Source: a virus. From it: 27,036 nucleotides of DNA. A program made the translations under genes and the position numbers. Shown here piece after piece: positions 1 through 27,036 of the stretch (within the stretch, counting starts at the first letter, position 1; each line of letters starts with the position of its first letter). Location: IMG/VR virus record IMGVR_UViG_3300038825_000096, positions 1-27,036 of that record. One strand, given 5' to 3'. The notes beneath the pieces were generated by a model. The model worked only from the letters and a program-made list of their open reading frames with translations. It was not told the origin of the DNA and searched no databases.

Positions 1-99
1 CTTTGTAAAGATTAAAAGCATAATCATCATCATCCTCAACGAATTTAAAAGTAGTTAATTTATTTAAAGTCGTTAATGGTGTTAATTTAATTTCTTCTA
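1..99. repeat. Terminal overlap, copy A (identical to 26938..27036); marks circular closure of the contig
   Basis: Bases 1-99 (ctttgtaaagattaaaagcataatc...aatttaatttcttcta) are repeated exactly as the last 99 bases of the window. The repeat lies inside an open reading frame. Confidence 0.95.
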
Positions 100-3555: not shown

Positions 3556-4095
3556 TTATTTTACTGTTGTTAAAGTTTCTTTTTTAATTGAACTTAAAAC
3601 ATCCTCACCTAAAGCTCCCAACATTTTATCGCCAAATTGTTTCATTCCTAATCCTAGCGGTTTTTGAAAGAAACTTATGCCTTGTATTCCATTAAACTTA
3701 ATACTTCTTGCAATTAAAAAAACCAAACTCTTTCTTTTTATAAACCTGCCCTGTTCATCTCTAGGGGCTATACGTTTTTTTACTACCCACTTATCTAAAA
3801 TTCCTGATGGTGGTTGTTTTGATTTGTATTTATAAGGACTTGTTTTAGTTTGATTTTCATAGTTTTTAAATTTCCTAATTTGTTTAGTTCCTGAAACCCC
3901 TTTATCAACATAGGTTCCGTATGGTGCCATCCAGAATTGAACCTCAAAACTATCTTTGCTTTTTTTAACCTCAAAACGTATTGATTTTTCTAACGCACTA
4001 CCACCTCCTTTTGCTCTCGCAAGATTTCGCTTTGCCCTGTTCACAACCTGCTTACCAAAGCTTTCTAAATACCTTTCAAGATTTTTAAAGTCCAT
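3556..4095 (-). CDS. Head-tail joining / tail-completion protein, possibly HK97 gp10-like (179 aa)
   Basis: The N-terminal segment LESFGKQVVNRAKRNLARAKGGGSALEKSIRFEV...APYGTYVDKGVSG resembles the HK97 gp10 family pattern. TAATG overlap with the upstream gene. Confidence 0.4.
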   Translation of the reverse strand: MDFKNLERYLESFGKQVVNRAKRNLARAKGGGSALEKSIRFEVKKSKDSFEVQFWMAPYGTYVDKGVSGTKQIRKFKNYENQTKTSPYKYKSKQPPSGILDKWVVKKRIAPRDEQGRFIKRKSLVFLIARSIKFNGIQGISFFQKPLGLGMKQFGDKMLGALGEDVLSSIKKETLTTVK

Positions 4096-4544
4096 TATAT
4101 ACTAGCTACAAATATTTCTACATCTACATCTGTTGTTGCTGTTGGTCTTACTTCTAATTTAGCAATATCTGCTAAAGAACCATAAGTAGGTACTGCATCA
4201 GCTTCTGCCAACATAACATCATCTGCCCTAGCTATAAGGTGTGAGTTTCCAGCAGGTATTAACATTGAATAGTTAGAAGCTGTTCCTGCTACTCCAATTT
4301 CTATATCATGGGTAGCTGATAAGTTAGAAACTCTAATGTATCTCACATTCTCTTTGTCTAATGCTCCTGCACTATCATATACATTTGATGAAAATGTTGC
4401 TATCGTTGTTGTTGCTGAATGTGGGCATGTTATTACCCTTTCAAAAGTATCTGTTATATCTGTAACTGTTAAGCTGTTTGATGAACCTCTTAAAGCACCA
4501 TTAATGGTTACACTTTCAGATACTGTTACTACTAAATTTGCCAT
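4095..4544 (-). CDS. Hypothetical virion protein (149 aa, beta-rich)
   Basis: ORF with an ATG start, packed in the structural operon. No recognisable motif. Confidence 0.55.
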   Translation of the reverse strand: MANLVVTVSESVTINGALRGSSNSLTVTDITDTFERVITCPHSATTTIATFSSNVYDSAGALDKENVRYIRVSNLSATHDIEIGVAGTASNYSMLIPAGNSHLIARADDVMLAEADAVPTYGSLADIAKLEVRPTATTDVDVEIFVASI

Positions 4545-4549
4545 AATTG

Positions 4550-4954
4550 TTATTTTTTATTTTTATCTATTTGTTTTAATTTTCTTATTGCCCACTCAAT
4601 ACCTGATGTGCCGCCCCATGCATCCCACATTAAACCACCACATCCCTCACTATAAGGAACGTCTTTATTTTGTTGATGTCTTTTAAATGAAGCCATTCTT
4701 GCAATCGTATCTCTGCTTATTGGTTTTCTATCTGCTAATTGTGAACTCCTAGTCCACCCAACACGTGTTCCGCAATCACTTCCATTTTCTTCTTTCCACT
4801 TTCTTGCACGTTTAGCGTTGTTAGTTGCTGATTGTGGGTAGTCATTATAACTAGCCATTTTAATACTAACAGCTTCTGCCATGTCTATTACATCATCAAA
4901 ACTCATAACTTTATTGTTATCTTTGGTGGTATTATTTGTATCTCTATTTTCCAT
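4550..4954 (-). CDS. Conserved phage head-associated domain protein (134 aa)
   Basis: Motif YPQSATNNAKRARKWKEENGSDCGTRVGWTRSSQLADRKPISRDTIARMASFKRHQ...WGGTSGIEWA. From memory this resembles an uncharacterised module often fused to MuF or prohead-protease proteins. I cannot name the family. Confidence 0.45.
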   Translation of the reverse strand: MENRDTNNTTKDNNKVMSFDDVIDMAEAVSIKMASYNDYPQSATNNAKRARKWKEENGSDCGTRVGWTRSSQLADRKPISRDTIARMASFKRHQQNKDVPYSEGCGGLMWDAWGGTSGIEWAIRKLKQIDKNKK

Positions 4955-4970
4955 ATTCTAAACTTAAGCA

Positions 4971-5519
4971 TTAGTATCCTGCTCCTGCATCCGTTACAGG
5001 AATATTACAAGTATCAAAGTCATTCATCACTAATATTCCAATTTGGAACACTTGACCGCATAGCAAATTATCAAACCTCTCGCTAAATGGCTCTATTGTA
5101 AACTGGTCTTGCGTAAAGTACAAAGGCTTATTAATATCATCAACACCTGCTAATGATTGTCTTGTACTATGTCTTAACATCCCTATAAAATCTGTTGCTA
5201 TTTCTAAAGTTTGATTATACACTTGTTGCTCGTTGTTTTTATTGTCTATTAGCTTTGTTAATCCTTTTGCATTGTAGGTTTGCCAATTATCCTTTTCGCT
5301 AACTAAATCACAAATAAATATTTGAAAGTTATAAGTAAGCTGTGCATCCCCTGTTGTAACATTAACAGGATTGATATGCAACAAAGGCATCTTTTCCATT
5401 TTCTCTAAATTAATATCAAAAATATCCCCAACTGAAACTGTTTGTATTTGGTCGTGATACTCACCTAGCCTTGCTAGAGTTTCTATTACGTTGTTGTATG
5501 TCTTATTGGTTACTGCCAT
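4971..5519 (-). CDS. Hypothetical virion/neck protein (182 aa)
   Basis: ORF with an ATG start that overlaps the upstream ORF by 17 nt, in the structural operon. Confidence 0.55.
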   Translation of the reverse strand: MAVTNKTYNNVIETLARLGEYHDQIQTVSVGDIFDINLEKMEKMPLLHINPVNVTTGDAQLTYNFQIFICDLVSEKDNWQTYNAKGLTKLIDNKNNEQQVYNQTLEIATDFIGMLRHSTRQSLAGVDDINKPLYFTQDQFTIEPFSERFDNLLCGQVFQIGILVMNDFDTCNIPVTDAGAGY

Positions 5520-5760
5520 ATTTTACTCTATTTTGTGAATCTAATTCTGTTTCATACGTTAGCCAAGTTAAACACTCATAAAGATTTAATTTGGTTACTG
5601 CTTCTAAATTTACTATTTGCCCTCCTGCCAGTCTATACATCACTCCGAACCAATTCCACTGACTTGCAAAATCTTCAGTTGCTATTGCTGTTTCGTTTCC
5701 TTCATGCTGCGAATCAAAGATAACTCCAAAGTCATTAACAACCCCTTTACGAAAATCCAA
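5503..5760 (-). CDS. -1 frame extension ORF, probably expressed only as the C-terminal part of a frameshift fusion with 5682..6284
   Basis: It has no ATG. The track start is a TTG lying inside the T9 run (5767..5759 on the coding strand). It overlaps the upstream ORF by 79 nt in the -1 frame. Confidence 0.5.
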   Translation of the reverse strand: MDFRKGVVNDFGVIFDSQHEGNETAIATEDFASQWNWFGVMYRLAGGQIVNLEAVTKLNLYECLTWLTYETELDSQNRVKYGSNQ

Positions 5761-6284
5761 AAAAAAACCAGAGCAGATTGCACTTGCTCCGAACTCATTT
5801 TTTTCATCTCTTCCGCCCTCTTATCTATTTTGCCATCATAGGCTTCAATAGTATAAAACCCATTCTCTCCCTCTTCAATAATTGGTCTGTAAAGAATTGC
5901 CATTACATTTGCTAAATTTTGCTGCAAATCATTTTTCATAAAAGCCTCTATATCAGCGTACTCACCTAATGTTATATCTGATAGGCTAGGATGAAATCCG
6001 TATCTTTTGCCATTTATCTCAATTATCTTTTTTAAAGAACTATTTGCCTTTTTTTGTAACTCTGCTATCTTGCTTAATATTAATGCTACATCTTGTATCC
6101 CTAATTGGTTAATCAGCTTTTTAGGAATGTCTGATAAAAGTGCTATTGTTTCTAATGCCTCTTTACTTTTATCATTGTCATTGATGTTTATTAATTTAAT
6201 CCACTTCTCTAATGTTACATCTTCCCAACTCTCAATTAATTTGTACTGCTTTTTTTTACCCTTTTTTTTAATTGCAACTTTCAT
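5682..6284 (-). CDS. Frame-0 product (200 aa) of a candidate G/GT-like chaperone pair
   Basis: ATG at 6284. Codons 173-176 are GTT TTT TTT TGG, and frame 0 stops 27 codons after the run. Size and architecture resemble tail assembly chaperones, but the location is atypical. Confidence 0.55.
   Translation of the reverse strand: MKVAIKKKGKKKQYKLIESWEDVTLEKWIKLININDNDKSKEALETIALLSDIPKKLINQLGIQDVALILSKIAELQKKANSSLKKIIEINGKRYGFHPSLSDITLGEYADIEAFMKNDLQQNLANVMAILYRPIIEEGENGFYTIEAYDGKIDKRAEEMKKMSSEQVQSALVFFWIFVKGLLMTLELSLIRSMKETKQQ
5759..5768 (-). other. Slippery homopolymer (G TTT TTT TTT G on the coding strand), a candidate programmed -1 ribosomal frameshift site
   Basis: Nine consecutive A at plus 5759..5767. 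A T_TTT_TTT heptamer lies in frame 0 of 5682..6284, and the -1 frame stays open to 5503. Confidence 0.5.
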
Positions 6285-6301: not shown

Positions 6302-6356
6302 TAGTTAATATTTAGTTTTTTTTATTATCTTTGCCACGTTTTCATTTCTCTTGTTA

Positions 6357-6385
6357 GGGGGTTGGCGTAATGCCGCCCCTTTTTT
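6357..6385. other. GC-rich stem-loop just downstream of the TerL stop
   Basis: GGGG-tt-GGC gtaat GCC-g-CCCC followed by TTTTTT on the plus strand. On the transcribed minus strand the hairpin has no U tract after it. Confidence 0.35.
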
Positions 6386-7586
6386 ATTGCACAAAATACT
6401 TACCTGCATTTGGATTGTCTAAATGATAAATTACGTTATATCTAATGCCATCTATCGCATGATTGTAATTGTCTATGTATAGCTTAGAGCCTTTGTCCTG
6501 ATAGGCATAGTTGTTTAACTCCTTAGCTATATTAGTTGATTCAGGTGTTATGACTAATTCATAATCTTGCATTCTAGTTATGCCGCTTTCAATAGTTCCT
6601 TTTTTAACAGGCTTTATATTTACTCCTAAATGCTTTAAGTCTGCTATTAGCCTAGGTTCTGCTGAATCTGCAATAATAAGAGTGTTGTTTACTTTATCTA
6701 ATATTAACTTAGCTAGGTCATGGCTCTTTAATCCATTTTTATAGATATGCTCTTTTAGATATATCTTCATCTTTCTTTTGTCTATTGCAACTTCTGTTAA
6801 ACTATCAGGGTCAACACTAAATCCAAAATCCATTCCACATGATGTTTGCAGTCCATCTGGATTAAACTCTCCAATACTCCAGTTATCAAATACAACACCC
6901 TCTGCTTTGTCTAGCCACCCACCCATTATCTTATGCTGATACTTTTTAAAGTTCCTATGCTTTATAGCCTTAATACGCTCTAGGAAGCTGTTAGAGAGAT
7001 TTTCTTTATTGTCTAGGTATGTACTATGGATATAACACACATTGTCTTTAACGCCATTAAAACCTGCTTCTACGCCTTTGTCTTGAAAAAATCTATTATA
7101 TATCCAATGCTCTTTAGTTACAGGATTTAATATTAATACTATTCTGTTTTGTATATTCTTCTCTCTAATACTTAAATCAATAGTGTCAAATATATCTTCA
7201 TCAATTAATTCTTCTGCTTCATCTAACACCCAACAGCTAATGCCTTGCAAAGATTTTAAACTTGCGGTTTGGTTTCCTGCTGATGTCTTAATACCTCTAA
7301 ATAAAATATCTGATTTGTTTTTAAGATTAACTACTTCAGCTTTGTTTACACTAAATATATTCTCATATCCTAATAGCTGTATCTTTTCTAAAAACTCAGG
7401 TATTATTGATAGATGTGCTGATACCATTGTGTATCTTGTAAACAAAACCCTAATCCCCTCTGCCATAGTTAGCAAAGTTAAAAATACTGTTACTGCAAAT
7501 GATTTGCCTGAGCCTCTACCACCTGTTATTATAAAATAACGAGCATCAGATGTAAATAGCGGATTATATTTTTTACTCAGATTCAG
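6384..7586 (-). CDS. terL: Terminase large subunit, PBSX/Terminase_3-like. The true start is unresolved and lies upstream of the track start at 7475.
   Basis: Walker A ITGGRGSGKS (7523..7500) and Walker B CWVLDEAEE. Nuclease-half motifs GMDFGFSVDPD, IIADSAEPRLI and NHAIDGIRY. The frame is open from 7589, just after a TAG stop. Confidence 0.9.
   Translation of the reverse strand: MNLSKKYNPLFTSDARYFIITGGRGSGKSFAVTVFLTLLTMAEGIRVLFTRYTMVSAHLSIIPEFLEKIQLLGYENIFSVNKAEVVNLKNKSDILFRGIKTSAGNQTASLKSLQGISCWVLDEAEELIDEDIFDTIDLSIREKNIQNRIVLILNPVTKEHWIYNRFFQDKGVEAGFNGVKDNVCYIHSTYLDNKENLSNSFLERIKAIKHRNFKKYQHKIMGGWLDKAEGVVFDNWSIGEFNPDGLQTSCGMDFGFSVDPDSLTEVAIDKRKMKIYLKEHIYKNGLKSHDLAKLILDKVNNTLIIADSAEPRLIADLKHLGVNIKPVKKGTIESGITRMQDYELVITPESTNIAKELNNYAYQDKGSKLYIDNYNHAIDGIRYNVIYHLDNPNAGKYFVQ
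7092..7102 (+). repeat. Sixth exact copy of the 11-mer TCTATTATATA, in inverted orientation and inside the TerL coding sequence
   Basis: Plus strand atctattatatatcc. It encodes WIYNRFF on the minus strand. Confidence 0.6.
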
Positions 7587-7833
7587 TGTCTACAAAGTTT
7601 ATTAATGGCATGTTGATTGTCTCCTCATTTGATGTTACATCTACCCTTTGTTGTGGCTTACCATAGAAATACTCAAAGAATAATTTTACTGCCCATTGTT
7701 CTTTTTTCTCTAATCCTTTTTTAAGTGATTCTAAAGCCATTGGATTCATTGGTGTAAGATTCTCTATTAGCTTCTGCTCTTCTGCCTTAGCCTTACGCCC
7801 TGCTCCTGCTCTTTTACCTCCATGTGTGTTCAT
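7573..7833 (-). CDS. terS: Putative terminase small subunit (86 aa)
   Basis: Lies immediately upstream of TerL and overlaps its open frame. The N-terminal GGKRAGAGRKAK and the C-terminal YGKPQQRVDV are typical of small terminase-like proteins. Confidence 0.5.
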   Translation of the reverse strand: MNTHGGKRAGAGRKAKAEEQKLIENLTPMNPMALESLKKGLEKKEQWAVKLFFEYFYGKPQQRVDVTSNEETINMPLINFVDTESE

Positions 7834-8262: not shown

Positions 8263-8464
8263 ATTTTATATATTTGCGTGTTATACTATTTTCACGTCTT
8301 TGCTTAAATTCCTCTTTAAGTATTTTAGTAATCCTTGTATGTGCAACATCAAACTTATTTGTCATTTCTTTTAGGCTGTTTGCATTTGGATTGTTAAAGT
8401 AATATTCAACAACCTTTTTTGCTAGTGCCTTTGGGTTCTTTGGTATTCTAGGTTTTGTTTTCAT
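8246..8464 (-). CDS. Hypothetical small basic protein, possibly HTH (72 aa)
   Basis: ORF with an ATG start, coupled to its neighbours. The segment SLKEMTNKFDVAHTRITKILK looks HTH-like. Confidence 0.45.
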   Translation of the reverse strand: MKTKPRIPKNPKALAKKVVEYYFNNPNANSLKEMTNKFDVAHTRITKILKEEFKQRRENSITRKYIKYEFRN

Positions 8465-8721
8465 TAATCAAATGGTTCATTTATGCCTCTCTCTCCTATT
8501 AGCTTTTCTTTTGCTCCATCCCATAATTTATCATGTCGTTTTTTTTTACTTAATGATGCTTCTGTTCTTTTAATACTTGGCATCCCCTCGGCAGGTTCAC
8601 TATCCATATATTTACCACATTTACACATTACATCTGCAACCCATTTACCATCTCTAAAGACTATGGTTGCTTTGCTTACTTCCTTTTCTTGCTCTCCGCA
8701 TGGGCATTTGTATAGTGTCAT
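8464..8721 (-). CDS. Zinc-ribbon-like small protein (85 aa)
   Basis: Two Cys pairs, CPCG...CKCG. Gene overlaps on both sides. Confidence 0.5.
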   Translation of the reverse strand: MTLYKCPCGEQEKEVSKATIVFRDGKWVADVMCKCGKYMDSEPAEGMPSIKRTEASLSKKKRHDKLWDGAKEKLIGERGINEPFD

Positions 8722-23936: not shown

Positions 23937-23973
23937 TATATAATAGATTTAATTAATAATTTGTTTGATTTTT
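23937..23973 (-). promoter_or_regulatory. Late-region motif copy 5 plus upstream block AAAATCAAACAAA, with 2 nt between the 11-mer and the XkdF-like ATG
   Basis: Exact 11-mer at plus 23937..23947 and the upstream block at 23960..23972. It has the same two-block architecture as copy 4. Confidence 0.55.
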
Positions 23974-25423
23974 ATATTGTAGCTTGTCGCCTAATGTTAG
24001 CTAATTGGTCTTGCGAATTAGTCATTTCATCAGTTACAACAAACGCTTTCATAGGCTCAGGTGCCAATCCTCCGCCTAATTCAAAAGCCCCTGACATCAT
24101 TTGTGGTGCAGGTATTGATGATTTAAACTCACTACCAGATGCCCCTGCACTACTTGTATCTGGTGGTGAACCTGCTGCAATTTTAGCAATATTTGTAGCG
24201 GCAAAACCTGCTGCTAGTCCTGCCATCACTAACGGATAACCACCTGCTGTCGCTGCTGTTAGTGCAATATTGGCATTTGCTGCCGTAAAGGCATTTTGTA
24301 CACCTTGAACTCCTGAGATTGTAGCCTGTGCAATGGCTGCTGCCTTACCTATTGCAGTACCCTCACCTGCTGCTTGTTGTATCACTCGCAATCCCTGCAT
24401 TGTGACATCTTTTCTAAAAGCCTGTAAATCCTGTTCTAGCTGTTTTTTCTTTTTTTGATTTATTTCTAATTGTGCAATATAATCATTATCTGCCTGTATA
24501 AGTTCGTTGTTTACTTTTGCAACTATGCTTGGCATTTTTTCAATATCTCCAAACCTTTCATCAAATGCTTCTTTTCGTTCTTTTAGCCTAGCCTGTTCTT
24601 CTGCGTGTATTTCACGTTCTAAAGCGTTTACCTCAGTTACAACCCTTCGCCTCATTTTAATAGATGCAGTTTCCTTTTCAATTAATTCAACTTTTAAGCT
24701 AGCTAGCTTTTGTTCATCTTCTATTAGATTTTCAGATTGTGCCATTTCTTGCTCTTGTATTGCCAATCTTTCACTTGCTAACTCTAACTCTCTTTGTGTG
24801 GTTTTTTCTTCTAAGTCTAGTGCAACCTTTAAATTCTCTAGCCTTTCTTTTGCTGATTTTGTTTCATCTTCTGCTATTAACCTTGCTCTTTCTATTTCTT
24901 GTCTAGTCGCTGCCTTTTGTACCATGAACTCTAAATCTGCATCTCTCAATTCTTGCGTTCTTCTTTTTAACTCAGTCATAGCAACAACCTCACGCTCTAT
25001 TTCATCTGCTATCCCTGAAAATGTTTCTTTTAAAGCATCTCCTGCCTTTTGAAACTCTCCTGAAAATACAAAAGTTAAAACTTCTCCAAATTTTGAAAAT
25101 CTATCCACTAAAACATCAACAACAGCCCCCATTCCTGCCAAAGCCTTTTCAAGTTGGTCTGCACCTCTTTTAGTATTTGTAAAATAAGATACTAGCGAAC
25201 CTATTGCCACTAGAAATGCTCCAATACCTGTGCTTATTAATCCTGCCTTAACAGAAGCAAACATAGTCTTTGCCTGTTTACCTGCTGATAAAAACCCTGC
25301 TTTAACAGAGTTTAAAGACACCCCCATTATTTTAAACTCAGCTGCCGCATTTTTAGCATCCTTGCCTACTTTGCCAACATCTGATTTTACATTTAGGTTT
25401 AAAGTTTCTGTTTTACTTGCCAT
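23972..25423 (-). CDS. Tape-measure-like or internal ejection protein (483 aa)
   Basis: N-terminal hydrophobic segments, a long central E/K/R/Q coiled-coil, a G/A-rich hydrophobic C-terminal block (ALTAATAGGYPLVMAGLAAGFAATNIAKIAAG) and a conserved-looking tail VVTDEMTNSQDQLANIRRQATI. Confidence 0.5.
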   Translation of the reverse strand: MASKTETLNLNVKSDVGKVGKDAKNAAAEFKIMGVSLNSVKAGFLSAGKQAKTMFASVKAGLISTGIGAFLVAIGSLVSYFTNTKRGADQLEKALAGMGAVVDVLVDRFSKFGEVLTFVFSGEFQKAGDALKETFSGIADEIEREVVAMTELKRRTQELRDADLEFMVQKAATRQEIERARLIAEDETKSAKERLENLKVALDLEEKTTQRELELASERLAIQEQEMAQSENLIEDEQKLASLKVELIEKETASIKMRRRVVTEVNALEREIHAEEQARLKERKEAFDERFGDIEKMPSIVAKVNNELIQADNDYIAQLEINQKKKKQLEQDLQAFRKDVTMQGLRVIQQAAGEGTAIGKAAAIAQATISGVQGVQNAFTAANANIALTAATAGGYPLVMAGLAAGFAATNIAKIAAGSPPDTSSAGASGSEFKSSIPAPQMMSGAFELGGGLAPEPMKAFVVTDEMTNSQDQLANIRRQATI

Positions 25424-26282: not shown

Positions 26283-27036
26283 TATATAATAAGTATAAAT
26301 TCTACTGTTGCTAAATCGCCTGGTTTGTAATCTATTTTGTTTACTCTATATTCTCTATTTTTGATAAATACATTGTCAAAAAAATTAAAGCTGTTCATAT
26401 CGCCTGGAGTTAAATTTACTTTTAATGTCATAGTCCTTGTATCTGCATTATACAACTCATTAAAATAAGGCAACCAATAAAGATAAAATAGATTGTTTGT
26501 GGTTGCATTTCCTATTGGTTGAAAAAGCTGACAATCTCCAAAATGGAAATCATTTGTATCTGTTGGTTGTGGTGGTATTGTTGTTACAGTTGGTATATCT
26601 GTTAAATGGCTAAACTGTAAAAAGTCTGTCATTTGCTCTCCTGCTTCTGTGTTTTGAGCAGGTATATAATATGTGCAACTTGTTAAAGTCTTTACACCAT
26701 TGTTATACATGATTCTAGGACTGTTTGCAAAACCTTGAGATGTACCATCATCAGGGTTGTAAGAATATATTGCAGGTGTTATAAAATCAGAAAACTGTGA
26801 CATCAAAGGTTTAGGAACTGTTGCTGCAAAAGGCTCTGGTATTATTTCTTCCTCTCCTGTTAATATTGTAGGGAATCCATTTCCTGATAATGAAGCATCA
26901 AAAAGTTTAGAACCATATAAATGTCCTTGTACTGCTCCTTTGTAAAGATTAAAAGCATAATCATCATCATCCTCAACGAATTTAAAAGTAGTTAATTTAT
27001 TTAAAGTCGTTAATGGTGTTAATTTAATTTCTTCTA
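26282..27036 (-). CDS. C-terminal part of the same wrap-around 921-aa tail fibre gene (unique part 26282..26937)
   Basis: The track ORF 26282..26806 begins at a TTG only because the finder needs a start codon. The frame is open upstream to 27036 and (26938-26806) is divisible by 3, so it joins position 1 in frame. The TAA stop at 26284..26282 overlaps the ATG of the next gene (TAATG). Confidence 0.8.
   Translation of the reverse strand, partial: EEIKLTPLTTLNKLTTFKFVEDDDDYAFNLYKGAVQGHLYGSKLFDASLSGNGFPTILTGEEEIIPEPFAATVPKPLMSQFSDFITPAIYSYNPDDGTSQGFANSPRIMYNNGVKTLTSCTYYIPAQNTEAGEQMTDFLQFSHLTDIPTVTTIPPQPTDTNDFHFGDCQLFQPIGNATTNNLFYLYWLPYFNELYNADTRTMTLKVNLTPGDMNSFNFFDNVFIKNREYRVNKIDYKPGDLATVEFILII
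26938..27036. repeat. Terminal overlap, copy B (identical to 1..99)
   Basis: Exact 99-nt identity with the window start. Position 26938 is in frame with ORF 26282..26806, and there is no stop in 26807..27036. Confidence 0.95.

What the first reader, a model, noticed from the sequence alone, without database searches (positions are those of the whole stretch)
5503..6284. T9 slippery run creates a G/GT-style -1 frameshift pair far from the tape-measure-like gene
In gene 6284..5682, codons 173-176 read GTT TTT TTT TGG, a T_TTT_TTT heptamer (plus A9 at 5759-5767). Frame 0 terminates 27 codons later, giving a 200-aa product. The -1 frame has no ATG of its own and stays open for 85 codons to 5503. 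A -1 slip would give a fusion of about 260 aa with junction peptide ...SALVFF/LDFRKGVVNDF.... This is the classic architecture of tail assembly chaperones (lambda G/GT). Here, however, the pair sits directly after TerL and about 8 kb of genes upstream of the tape-measure-like gene (25423..23972). It is therefore either a displaced chaperone pair or a frameshift in an unrelated protein family. The trivial alternative is a homopolymer length error, since T10 would fuse the two ORFs into one.
Basis: partly seen in the sequence, partly recalled or inferred. Interest (0 to 1): 0.65.

Follow-up and report, generated by a model that had tools for sequence, protein, structure and literature searches.

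The report
Conserved T9 frameshift gene beside terminase
A run of nine T's splits a phage gene next to the DNA-packaging enzyme into two reading frames, and this split is conserved in over a hundred related marine phages, so it is a real device for making a short and a long protein from one gene, not a sequencing error and not a recognisable tail chaperone.

Summary
Gene 6284..5682(-) reads GTT TTT TTT TGG at codons 173-176 (T9 = A9 at 5759-5767). Frame 0 stops after 200 aa, and the -1 frame stays open to 5503, giving a 260-aa fusion.

It is not a homopolymer error. In 124 distinct IMG/VR relatives, the cultured Nonlabens phages P12024S/L and distant metagenome branches (about 30% identity), the junction always carries T9 (112), T10 (11) or T11 (1), with the C-terminal domain in the -1 frame. 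The overlap evolves as -1-frame coding sequence. Most loci have no start codon there. Some distant homologues are single unsplit ORFs without any T run. So the 260-aa two-domain protein is real and reached by recoding.

The run keeps at least 9 T's in all three codon phases, with flanking codons compensating, and no conserved downstream RNA structure was found. I therefore favour RNA-polymerase slippage that adds one U. Ribosomal -1 slippage on U_UUU_UUU is the main rival.

The tail-chaperone reading is not supported. The gene sits between TerL and connector-like genes, has no Pfam, PHROG or NCBIfam tail-chaperone hit, and its N-domain model (pLDDT 94.6) matches nothing in the PDB. I rate it a new variant of a known kind.

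The parts
5682..6284 (-). Frame-0 ORF. It encodes a 200-aa product made of a conserved ~175-aa N-domain plus a 25-aa poorly constrained tail.
   Evidence: Homologues of 199-215 aa appear. The N-domain AlphaFold model has pLDDT 94.6.
5759..5767 (-). T9 slip run (U9 in the mRNA), inside codons GTT TTT TTT TGG (173-176).
   Evidence: The run is invariant at T9-T11 at the same junction in 124 distinct IMG/VR loci and in isolates.
5503..5768 (-). The -1 frame continuation (LDFRKGVVNDF...KYGSNQ*). It encodes the conserved ~85-aa helical C-domain and has no start codon of its own upstream of the conserved LxFRxR segment.
   Evidence: It aligns with the C-terminal part of single-ORF homologues.
5503..6284 (-). 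The whole recoded gene. Its 260-aa two-domain product corresponds to the unsplit ancestral-type protein.
5682..5758 (-). Overlap zone where both frames are open. Its substitution pattern fits -1-frame coding, not frame 0.
   Evidence: By -1-frame codon position, variability is 0.22/0.14/0.29. By frame-0 position it is 0.14/0.29/0.22.
5770..5784 (-). Candidate nascent-RNA hairpin (AGUGC-loop-GCNCU) ending 2 nt before the run. It is imperfect in the window itself (U.U at the central pair), is specific to the main clade, and is of uncertain relevance.
   Evidence: All five pairs are intact in 51/68 main-clade sequences. It is not evident in distant branches.
6384..7585 (-). Context: the large terminase gene directly upstream. 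Its Walker A motif lies upstream of the first canonical start codon.
3556..5519 (-). Context: the conserved downstream block of small genes (182, 134, 149 and 179 aa). The 179-aa product belongs to phrog_29822 and is weakly HK97 gp10-like. The same X / phrog_30964 / phrog_29822 / phrog_35281 order is seen in distant relatives.

Best explanation
This is one gene expressed in two forms through a conserved recoding site.
- Standard expression of the T9-containing gene gives a 200-aa protein: the N-domain plus a short, unconstrained tail.
- In a fraction of expression events the reading frame moves to -1 at the T9 run. This gives a 260-aa protein that adds an ~85-aa helical C-domain.
- That long form matches the ancestral single-ORF protein seen in distant relatives.

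I think the shift most likely happens at the RNA level. The host RNA polymerase slips on the 9-nt homopolymer, which is the length of its RNA:DNA hybrid, and adds one extra U. The resulting U10 transcripts encode the fusion in a single frame. Some ribosomal -1 slippage on U_UUU_UUU may contribute.

The protein belongs to the virion-assembly gene block next to TerL. It probably acts as an assembly factor or adaptor whose two isoforms are needed in a set ratio.

What is shown and what is inferred:
- Shown: the anatomy, its conservation, the coding constraint on the -1 frame, and preservation of run length in all codon phases.
- Inferred: RNA-level slippage, the isoform ratio and the assembly role.
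For: (1) The two-frame layout is universal. All 124 distinct IMG/VR loci have the C-domain in the -1 frame behind T9 (112), T10 (11) or T11 (1). The same holds in Nonlabens phages P12024S and P12024L, where the two parts are annotated as separate genes. It also holds in deep metagenome branches at about 30% identity.

(2) The -1 frame is the constrained frame in the overlap and downstream. Most loci have no -1-frame start codon between the upstream -1 stop and the run.

(3) Distant homologues are single ORFs of 230-280 aa, some without FF or any T run at the junction.

(4) Run length, not only a heptamer, is conserved.
- T9 occurs starting at codon position 2 (100 loci), 1 (6) and 3 (6).
- Among cluster representatives, a preceding V/L/I codon (2 T's) goes with a following Y/W/C/S codon (1 T) in 60 cases. 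A preceding G/S/N/A/D/C codon (1 T) goes with a following Leu codon (2 T's) in 19 cases. Fisher p = 1e-11, and T9 is predicted in 79/96. This was verified on DNA.

(5) Bacterial RNA polymerase has a 9-10 bp hybrid and slips efficiently on runs of 9 A or T. Thermus thermophilus dnaX uses 9 T's productively (review PMC5009743, section 43).

(6) No stable or conserved downstream RNA structure was found.

(7) Runs of 9 or more are otherwise under-represented in the genome: 2 observed against 5.6 expected.
Against: - No RNA or protein data exist, so neither the slippage nor either product has been observed.
- Any run of 9 or more T's contains an in-phase U_UUU_UUU heptamer. Ribosomal -1 slippage is therefore compatible with every locus and gives the identical protein.
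- The phase variants form a few clades, so the phase-compensation statistic overstates the number of independent events.
- In the dominant phase, T1 and T9 of the run are also second codon positions of hydrophobic residues. Part of the T9 invariance could therefore be protein constraint.
- The function of the protein is unknown.
Confidence: 0.5

Rival explanations
1. The shift is classical -1 programmed ribosomal frameshifting, lambda G/GT-style. Two Phe-tRNAs slip back one base on U_UUU_UUU in an unedited U9 mRNA, giving the same 200-aa and 260-aa products.
For: An in-phase T_TTT_TTT (or T_TTT_TTC) heptamer is present in every locus in all three phases. [quoted passage not shown] Enhanced synonymous conservation around the site is compatible with a translational signal.
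Against: - Only 7 T's are needed, yet none of 124 IMG/VR loci has fewer than 9. Flanking codons co-vary to keep 9.
- No conserved or stable downstream stem-loop or pseudoknot was found.
- No upstream Shine-Dalgarno-like element is conserved. From general knowledge, the presumed Flavobacteriaceae hosts make little use of SD pairing.
- The frame-0 stop lies 27-43 codons after the site, further than is usual for G/GT.
Confidence: 0.33
2. The switch is at the DNA level. Replication slippage interconverts T9 and T10 genomes (phase variation), so the phage population is a mixture encoding either the short or the long protein.
For: In-frame T10/T11 contigs and T8 contigs exist in metagenome assemblies (L083, L084, L104, L089, L102, L103). 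This shows that run-length variants occur or are at least called.
Against: These variants are rare. There are about 22 long-class clusters, each on 1-2 contigs, among 3740 hits, and none among 124 distinct IMG/VR loci. Most are on short or scaffolded contigs. A lytic phage needs both the conserved N-only state and the conserved C-domain within a single infection, and the strong purifying selection on a C-domain that would be untranslated in over 99% of genomes is hard to explain this way.
Confidence: 0.05
3. These are two independent genes. The C-domain is translated on its own by internal initiation or by termination-reinitiation at the frame-0 stop, as the GenBank annotation of P12024S gp38/gp39 implies.
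For: In P12024S the frame-0 stop overlaps an ATG in the -1 frame (TAATG), and the record annotates a 55-aa gp39. Gene callers often call stand-alone C-domain ORFs.
Against: - The conserved LxFRxR...F..LF segment lies between the run and any such start.
- That segment is under -1-frame constraint and aligns with unsplit homologues.
- Most loci, including the window, have no ATG/GTG/TTG in the -1 frame before it.
- The stop-start overlap is not conserved.
Confidence: 0.05
4. It is an artefact or decay. Either the assembly has a homopolymer length error (true T10, one ORF), or the gene is a frameshifted pseudogene.
For: T10 would fuse the ORFs, and a few contigs do show T10.
Against: The out-of-frame state recurs in hundreds of independent assemblies from many samples and technologies, and at 28-97% protein identity. 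The run is preserved while its flanks diverge. The window's own protein cluster is seen on 30 contigs. The C-domain remains under purifying selection.
Confidence: 0.01

Closest known systems
Lambda G/GT and other tail assembly chaperone pairs (conserved -1 ribosomal frameshift in dsDNA phage tail genes)
   Same: Both are phage morphogenesis-region genes. Two products share an N-terminal part, the longer one is made by a -1 shift at a slippery run near the end of the first ORF, and the layout is conserved across very divergent sequences. The plausible logic is a fixed ratio of two isoforms.
   Different: - The gene is not between the major tail and tape-measure genes. It lies directly after TerL and before connector-like genes.
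- It has no sequence or structural similarity to any tail-chaperone family.
- The slip element is a homopolymer of 9 or more T's kept in every codon phase, rather than a phase-locked heptamer.
- The frame-0 stop is 27-43 codons downstream.
- Unsplit single-ORF homologues exist.
Programmed transcriptional slippage on 9-nt A/T runs (Thermus thermophilus dnaX; Shigella mxiE and spa13)
   Same: A homopolymer of about 9 T/A matches the RNA:DNA hybrid length. Addition of one base to the mRNA joins two ORFs, or changes the C-terminus, and no RNA structure is required (PMC5009743). That mxiE uses a T9 run is from my memory, not from the text read.
   Different: Those cases are in cellular genes. Here the device sits in a lytic phage assembly-region gene and is conserved across thousands of phage lineages. 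No transcript data exist for this case.
Stem-loop-stimulated slippage in a Roseiflexus IS element (hairpin 5' adjacent to the slip motif)
   Same: In the main clade, a small hairpin ends 2 nt upstream of the run. This position is similar to the stimulatory nascent-RNA hairpin described in PMC5009743, section 43.
   Different: The hairpin here has only 5 bp, is imperfect in the window itself, and is absent from distant branches. A T9 run should not need it.
T7 gene 10A/10B and Listeria or Lactobacillus phage capsid and tail protein frameshifts
   Same: These are non-chaperone phage structural genes that make a C-terminally extended minor isoform by frameshifting (from general knowledge).
   Different: They are different protein families (capsid or tail tube) with different slip sites. 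The present protein is not a recognisable capsid or tail protein.

Membership tests
Tail assembly chaperone pair (lambda G/GT type) | [quoted passage not shown] | tested here: met
   The layout is conserved.
Tail assembly chaperone pair (lambda G/GT type) | Position between the major tail protein gene and the tape measure gene | tested here: not met
   The upstream neighbour is TerL. The downstream neighbours are 182/134/149/179-aa genes (phrog_29822, HK97 gp10-like) and then 479-aa and ~920-aa genes. The only 'tape-measure-like' gene is about 7 kb away round the circle and has just a weak partial PHROG hit. The same synteny is seen in P12024S.
Tail assembly chaperone pair (lambda G/GT type) | Sequence membership in a known TAC family (Pfam Phage_TAC_*, PHROG or NCBIfam TAC models) | tested here: not met
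   There is no Pfam hit for the fusion or for 20 homologues at E <= 1. The only PHROG hit is phrog_32199, of unknown function. NCBIfam gives none. A PDB sequence profile search gives none.
Tail assembly chaperone pair (lambda G/GT type) | Fold similar to solved TAC structures | tested here: not met
   The N-domain model (pLDDT 94.6, pTM 0.85) has no Foldseek match in the PDB (best E = 3, TM < 0.2). The full-length model also has none. BFVD matches are all uncharacterised phage proteins.
Tail assembly chaperone pair (lambda G/GT type) | Binds the tape measure and major tail proteins, and is absent from virions | not testable with these tools
   This needs biochemistry or proteomics.
Programmed transcriptional slippage site | Homopolymeric A or T run of about the RNA:DNA hybrid length (9 or more) | tested here: met
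   The window has T9. The run is T9-T11 in 124/124 distinct IMG/VR loci. The criterion comes from PMC5009743, section 43.
Programmed transcriptional slippage site | Run length conserved independently of codon phase | tested here: met
   T9 is found starting at codon positions 1, 2 and 3, and T10 likewise. Flanking residues compensate. Caveat: the phase variants represent few independent clades.
Programmed transcriptional slippage site | Heterogeneous mRNA population (U9 plus U10 and others) from a uniform DNA template | not testable with these tools
   No transcriptome data are available here.
-1 programmed ribosomal frameshift site | X_XXY_YYZ heptamer in phase with the zero frame | tested here: met
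   T_TTT_TTT is in phase in the window (GT T_TTT_TTT G) and in all phase variants.
-1 programmed ribosomal frameshift site | Stimulatory element: a downstream stem-loop or pseudoknot 5-9 nt after the site, or an upstream SD-like sequence | tested here: inconclusive
   The window's downstream fold has z = +1.0. Alifold finds only a 5-bp element about 40 nt downstream. No conserved SD-like motif was seen in the alignments. Absence of a detectable stimulator does not exclude low-level frameshifting.

The most novel reading that the evidence does not exclude
Programmed transcriptional slippage by the host RNA polymerase on a T9 tract may be a conserved gene-expression device of a very large group of abundant marine Flavobacteriaceae phages (more than 3000 protein clusters at 50% identity). 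It would set the ratio of a one-domain and a two-domain form of an assembly-region protein with a previously unseen fold. To my knowledge this would be the first widespread case of productive polymerase slippage in dsDNA phage morphogenesis genes. It would also be a second conserved phage frameshift family alongside the tail assembly chaperones.
Probability: 0.45. Interest if true: 0.72.

Novelty: new variant of a known kind. Interest (0 to 1): 0.62.

Why it matters
- **Scope of phage recoding.** Conserved recoding in tailed phages is essentially synonymous with the tail-chaperone G/GT pair. This is a second, very large and so far unannotated recoded family. Gene callers split it or truncate it in thousands of marine viral contigs, and in the reference genomes of Nonlabens phages P12024S/L it is annotated as two 'hypothetical proteins'.
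- **Annotation.** Recognising the site corrects those annotations.
- **A natural experiment on mechanism.** A run of 9 or more T's preserved in all three codon phases could separate polymerase slippage from ribosomal slippage.
- **Testability.** Cultured phage-host pairs exist, so the question can be tested directly.
- **A possible new fold.** The N-domain is predicted with high confidence and has no structural relative in the PDB, so its role next to the terminase is an open question in virion assembly.

Tried and rejected
- **Near-identical DNA search in GenBank phages.** No match.
- **Family and sequence searches.** Pfam, NCBIfam and a PDB sequence profile search on the fusion and on 20 homologues gave nothing meaningful.
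- **Foldseek against the PDB.** I searched with the full-length model (pLDDT 70) and the N-domain model (pLDDT 94.6). There were no hits, so no functional transfer is possible.
- **Upstream hairpin plus U-run as an intrinsic terminator or slippage stimulator.** Single-sequence folds are not better than shuffles. The terminator scan does not flag the site. The 5-bp hairpin is conserved only in the main clade. I kept it only as a weak, optional element.
- **Conserved frame-0 tail motif ([NS]G[DV]G...).** This is a by-product of the conserved -1-frame KWGW[FY]G motif read one base out of frame. Codon-position variability also shows no frame-0 constraint.
- **One alignment of diverse representatives as a locus query.** It was too divergent to derive search patterns. 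P0199 as a single-protein query found no relative, and P0219 found one locus in which no C-domain was detected.
- **GTDB genomes scan for prophage copies or host assignment.** It returned only two viral contigs mis-binned into MAGs.
- **The original P12024S/L genome paper.** It is not held in the library.
Full report
**1. Observation**

On the minus strand, ORF 6284..5682 encodes 200 aa. Codons 173-176 are GTT TTT TTT TGG, a T9 run (A9 at + strand 5759-5767). Frame 0 continues WIFVKGLLMTLELSLIRSMKETKQQ and stops. The -1 frame is open from the run to 5503, which is 85 codons. Reading the run as T10, or shifting -1, gives a 260-aa protein with junction ...SALVFF|LDFRKGVVNDF.

The gene upstream (6384..7475 and a little beyond) is the large terminase, with Terminase_3 and Terminase_3C domains. 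A 9-nt T/A run is not unusual here. Two are observed against 5.6 +/- 3 expected in dinucleotide shuffles. The run alone proves nothing, so the case rests on comparison with relatives.

**2. The split is real and conserved, not a homopolymer error**

A protein search with the conceptual fusion found 3740 relatives in marine metagenomes. They fall into two length classes.
- A large class of 199-215 aa ends shortly after ...VFF.
- A small class of about 257-261 aa covers the whole fusion.
- In alignment, all are collinear up to an invariant FF and diverge exactly there.

DNA of 80 IMG/VR relatives (57-97% identity) showed the frame-0 ORF ending after 199-215 aa in every locus where it could be followed. 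In all 80 the -1 frame stays open for about 84-90 codons wherever the locus extends far enough. The frame-0 stop comes 27-43 codons after the run, and the +1 frame closes within 4-17 codons.

The cultured Nonlabens (Persicivirga) phages P12024S and P12024L are only about 28% identical. They carry the same T9 at the same place, followed by the same ...ATCATTTAGGGAAC. GenBank annotates the two parts as separate hypothetical genes, gp38/gp39 and gp40/gp41. Deep metagenome branches at about 30% identity do likewise.

I then ran a junction scan that did not presuppose a run. It used an HMM for the N-domain, an HMM for the C-domain, and the longest T stretch between them. It gave 124 distinct IMG/VR loci. 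All have the C-domain in the -1 frame, behind T9 (112), T10 (11) or T11 (1).

The long-class ORFs that I traced are T10 (L083, L084, L104) or T11 plus extra bases (L089). Two 'T8' representatives have the C-domain in +1, which makes them T9 minus one. Both are short contigs. There are about 22 long-class clusters, each seen on one or two contigs, against thousands of short-class clusters. The window's own protein cluster is on 30 contigs.

**3. The -1 product is made and matters**

In the overlap zone, variability by codon position fits the -1 frame (0.22/0.14/0.29) and not frame 0 (0.14/0.29/0.22). Downstream, the -1 frame shows a normal coding pattern (0.14/0.09/0.32).

The conserved LxFRxR..F..(I/L)F segment starts immediately after the run. 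In most loci no ATG/GTG/TTG exists in the -1 frame between the nearest upstream -1 stop (3-70 nt before the run) and that segment. Independent initiation therefore cannot explain it.

A profile search of 1.84 billion cluster representatives found 3239 clusters. Among the best 150, 84 are short-class and 22 are full-length. Six of the full-length ones have no FF or T-run-compatible sequence at the junction (for example ...KYLDYR......EYFLKFR...). These are true unsplit genes. BFVD also holds full-length uncharacterised phage homologues of 230-280 aa.

The 260-aa two-domain protein is thus the ancestral unit. The T-run lineages reach it by recoding and mostly make the N-domain alone. The recurrent '[NS]G[DV]G' motif and the discrete lengths of the frame-0 tails are simply the -1-frame KWGW[FY]G motif read out of frame.

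**4. Mechanism**

Both candidate mechanisms give the same protein.

For ribosomal slippage: every locus has an in-phase U_UUU_UUU.

For RNA-polymerase slippage:
- **(a)** The run is never shorter than 9 in any out-of-frame IMG/VR locus, although 7 would suffice for the ribosome.
- **(b)** T9 occurs starting at codon position 2 (NTT TTT TTT T), position 1 (TTT TTT TTT) and position 3 (NNT TTT TTT TT). T10 also occurs in all three phases.
- **(c)** Among cluster representatives, the residue before FF and the residue after it compensate. V/L/I (two T's) goes with Y/W/C/S (one T) in 60 cases. G/S/N/A/D/C (one T) goes with Leu (two T's) in 19 cases, with only 10 exceptions. Fisher p = 1e-11, and T9 is predicted in 79 of 96. 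The invariant is therefore the run length, not the amino acid.
- **(d)** Bacterial RNA polymerase carries a 9-10 bp hybrid and slips efficiently on 9 A/T. Thermus thermophilus dnaX exploits 9 T's (PMC5009743, section 43).
- **(e)** There is no stable or conserved downstream structure.

Caveats: the phase variants are a few clades, and part of the T9 invariance in the main phase could be protein constraint.

A 5-bp hairpin ending 2 nt before the run is intact in 51/68 main-clade sequences. It is imperfect in the window and absent in distant branches, so I give it little weight.

My estimates are as follows.

| Explanation | Probability |
|---|---|
| Polymerase slippage as the main route | ~0.5 |
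| Ribosomal -1 frameshifting | ~0.33 |
| DNA-level phase variation | ~0.05 |
| Independent initiation of the C-domain | ~0.05 |
| Artefact or pseudogene | ~0.01 |

**5. What the protein is**

No Pfam, NCBIfam or PDB sequence hit was found for the fusion or for 20 homologues. The only PHROG hit is phrog_32199, of unknown function.

With a 119-sequence alignment, the N-domain folds at pLDDT 94.6 and pTM 0.85. It consists of a beta-hairpin, helices and a small sheet. It matches nothing in the PDB (best E = 3, TM < 0.2). The full-length model (pLDDT 70) places the slip site inside a long helix, followed by a disordered linker and a three-helix C-domain.

Synteny is conserved from the window to P12024S and to deep branches. 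The order is TerL, then this gene, then phrog_30964, then phrog_29822 (weakly HK97 gp10-like), then phrog_35281 (~475 aa), then phrog_38559 (a large fibre-like protein). Portal, protease and the probable capsid gene lie elsewhere on the circle.

I infer an assembly-region factor whose N-only and N+C forms are needed in a set ratio. The specific role is unknown.

**6. Comparison with the known, and novelty**

It works like G/GT: one gene, two C-termini, a fixed ratio. It fails three of the tail-chaperone membership tests I could run, namely position, family and fold.

Its slip element resembles the productive transcriptional slippage sites of cellular genes more than a phage heptamer. I found no paper describing it. 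Nishimura et al. (PMC5332604) describe a large 'group 1' of putative Flavobacteriaceae phages around the Persicivirga phages, and this genome plausibly belongs to it.

I rate it a new variant of a known kind, with interest 0.62. Its value lies in the size of the family, the misannotation it corrects, the natural experiment on mechanism, and the availability of cultured phage-host pairs for a decisive test.

Noticed in passing
window 7476..7590 (-), start of the TerL gene: The TerL Walker A motif (GGRGSGKS) lies upstream of the first ATG/GTG/TTG of its ORF. The frame is open from a TAG (TAG ACA CTG AAT CTG AGT AAA...) with no canonical start before the motif. The same holds in 35 of 50 distinct relatives, which have a conserved 'TAG AAA CTG AAT CTG'. 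TerL may start at a non-canonical codon (CTG?) or be entered by a +1 shift from the overlapping upstream 86-aa ORF (7573..7833).
   Followed up: partly
window 1..99 and 26938..27036: There is a 99-nt exact terminal direct repeat, so the contig is a circularly closed genome of 26,937 bp. A large (~920 aa) fibre-like ORF (phrog_38559-like) runs from 2110 across the ends to 26282.
   Followed up: yes
proteins P0009 and P0024 (relatives); equivalent to window ~5768..5803: Two 'full-length' homologues read the -1 frame already from the upstream A7/A8 run (KKDVSRASAKCTGFFL instead of KKMSAEQVQSALVFF). This implies an extra base at the A-run rather than at the T-run, so that run is a second indel-prone homopolymer about 35 nt upstream.
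   Followed up: no
window 6021..6047 (-), codons 80-88 of the gene: There is a peak of synonymous-site conservation (0.8-0.9 against a gene mean of 0.63) over ANSSLKKII. It is as strong as the peak at the slip site and has no explanation so far. A similar peak at codons 242-260 coincides with the overlap and start region of the downstream gene.
   Followed up: no
window 8539..8547: This is the only other 9-nt homopolymer in the genome (T9 on the + strand, A9 on the coding minus strand). It lies inside ORF 8464..8721(-), where it encodes KKK in frame. I did not check it for conservation or an alternative frame.
   Followed up: no
L106 (PBGL02000003.1) and L107 (PAPR01000049.1): The only GTDB 'genome' hits are 29-kb and 17-kb contigs binned into a Methanobacteriota archaeon MAG and a Pseudooceanicola MAG. 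They are phage contigs of this family and almost certainly mis-binned.
   Followed up: no
T10-type relatives L109-L119, L039, L041, L073: All 11 out-of-frame T10 runs in IMG/VR relatives are followed by C, whereas T9 runs are followed by A or G in all but one locus. I have no explanation for this.
   Followed up: no
window 6345..6375: A G+C-rich stem-loop (GGGGCGGCATTACGCCAACCCC on the minus strand) sits in the 100-nt gap between the TerL stop and the start of the recoded gene. The scan flags it as terminator-like only for the + strand.
   Followed up: no
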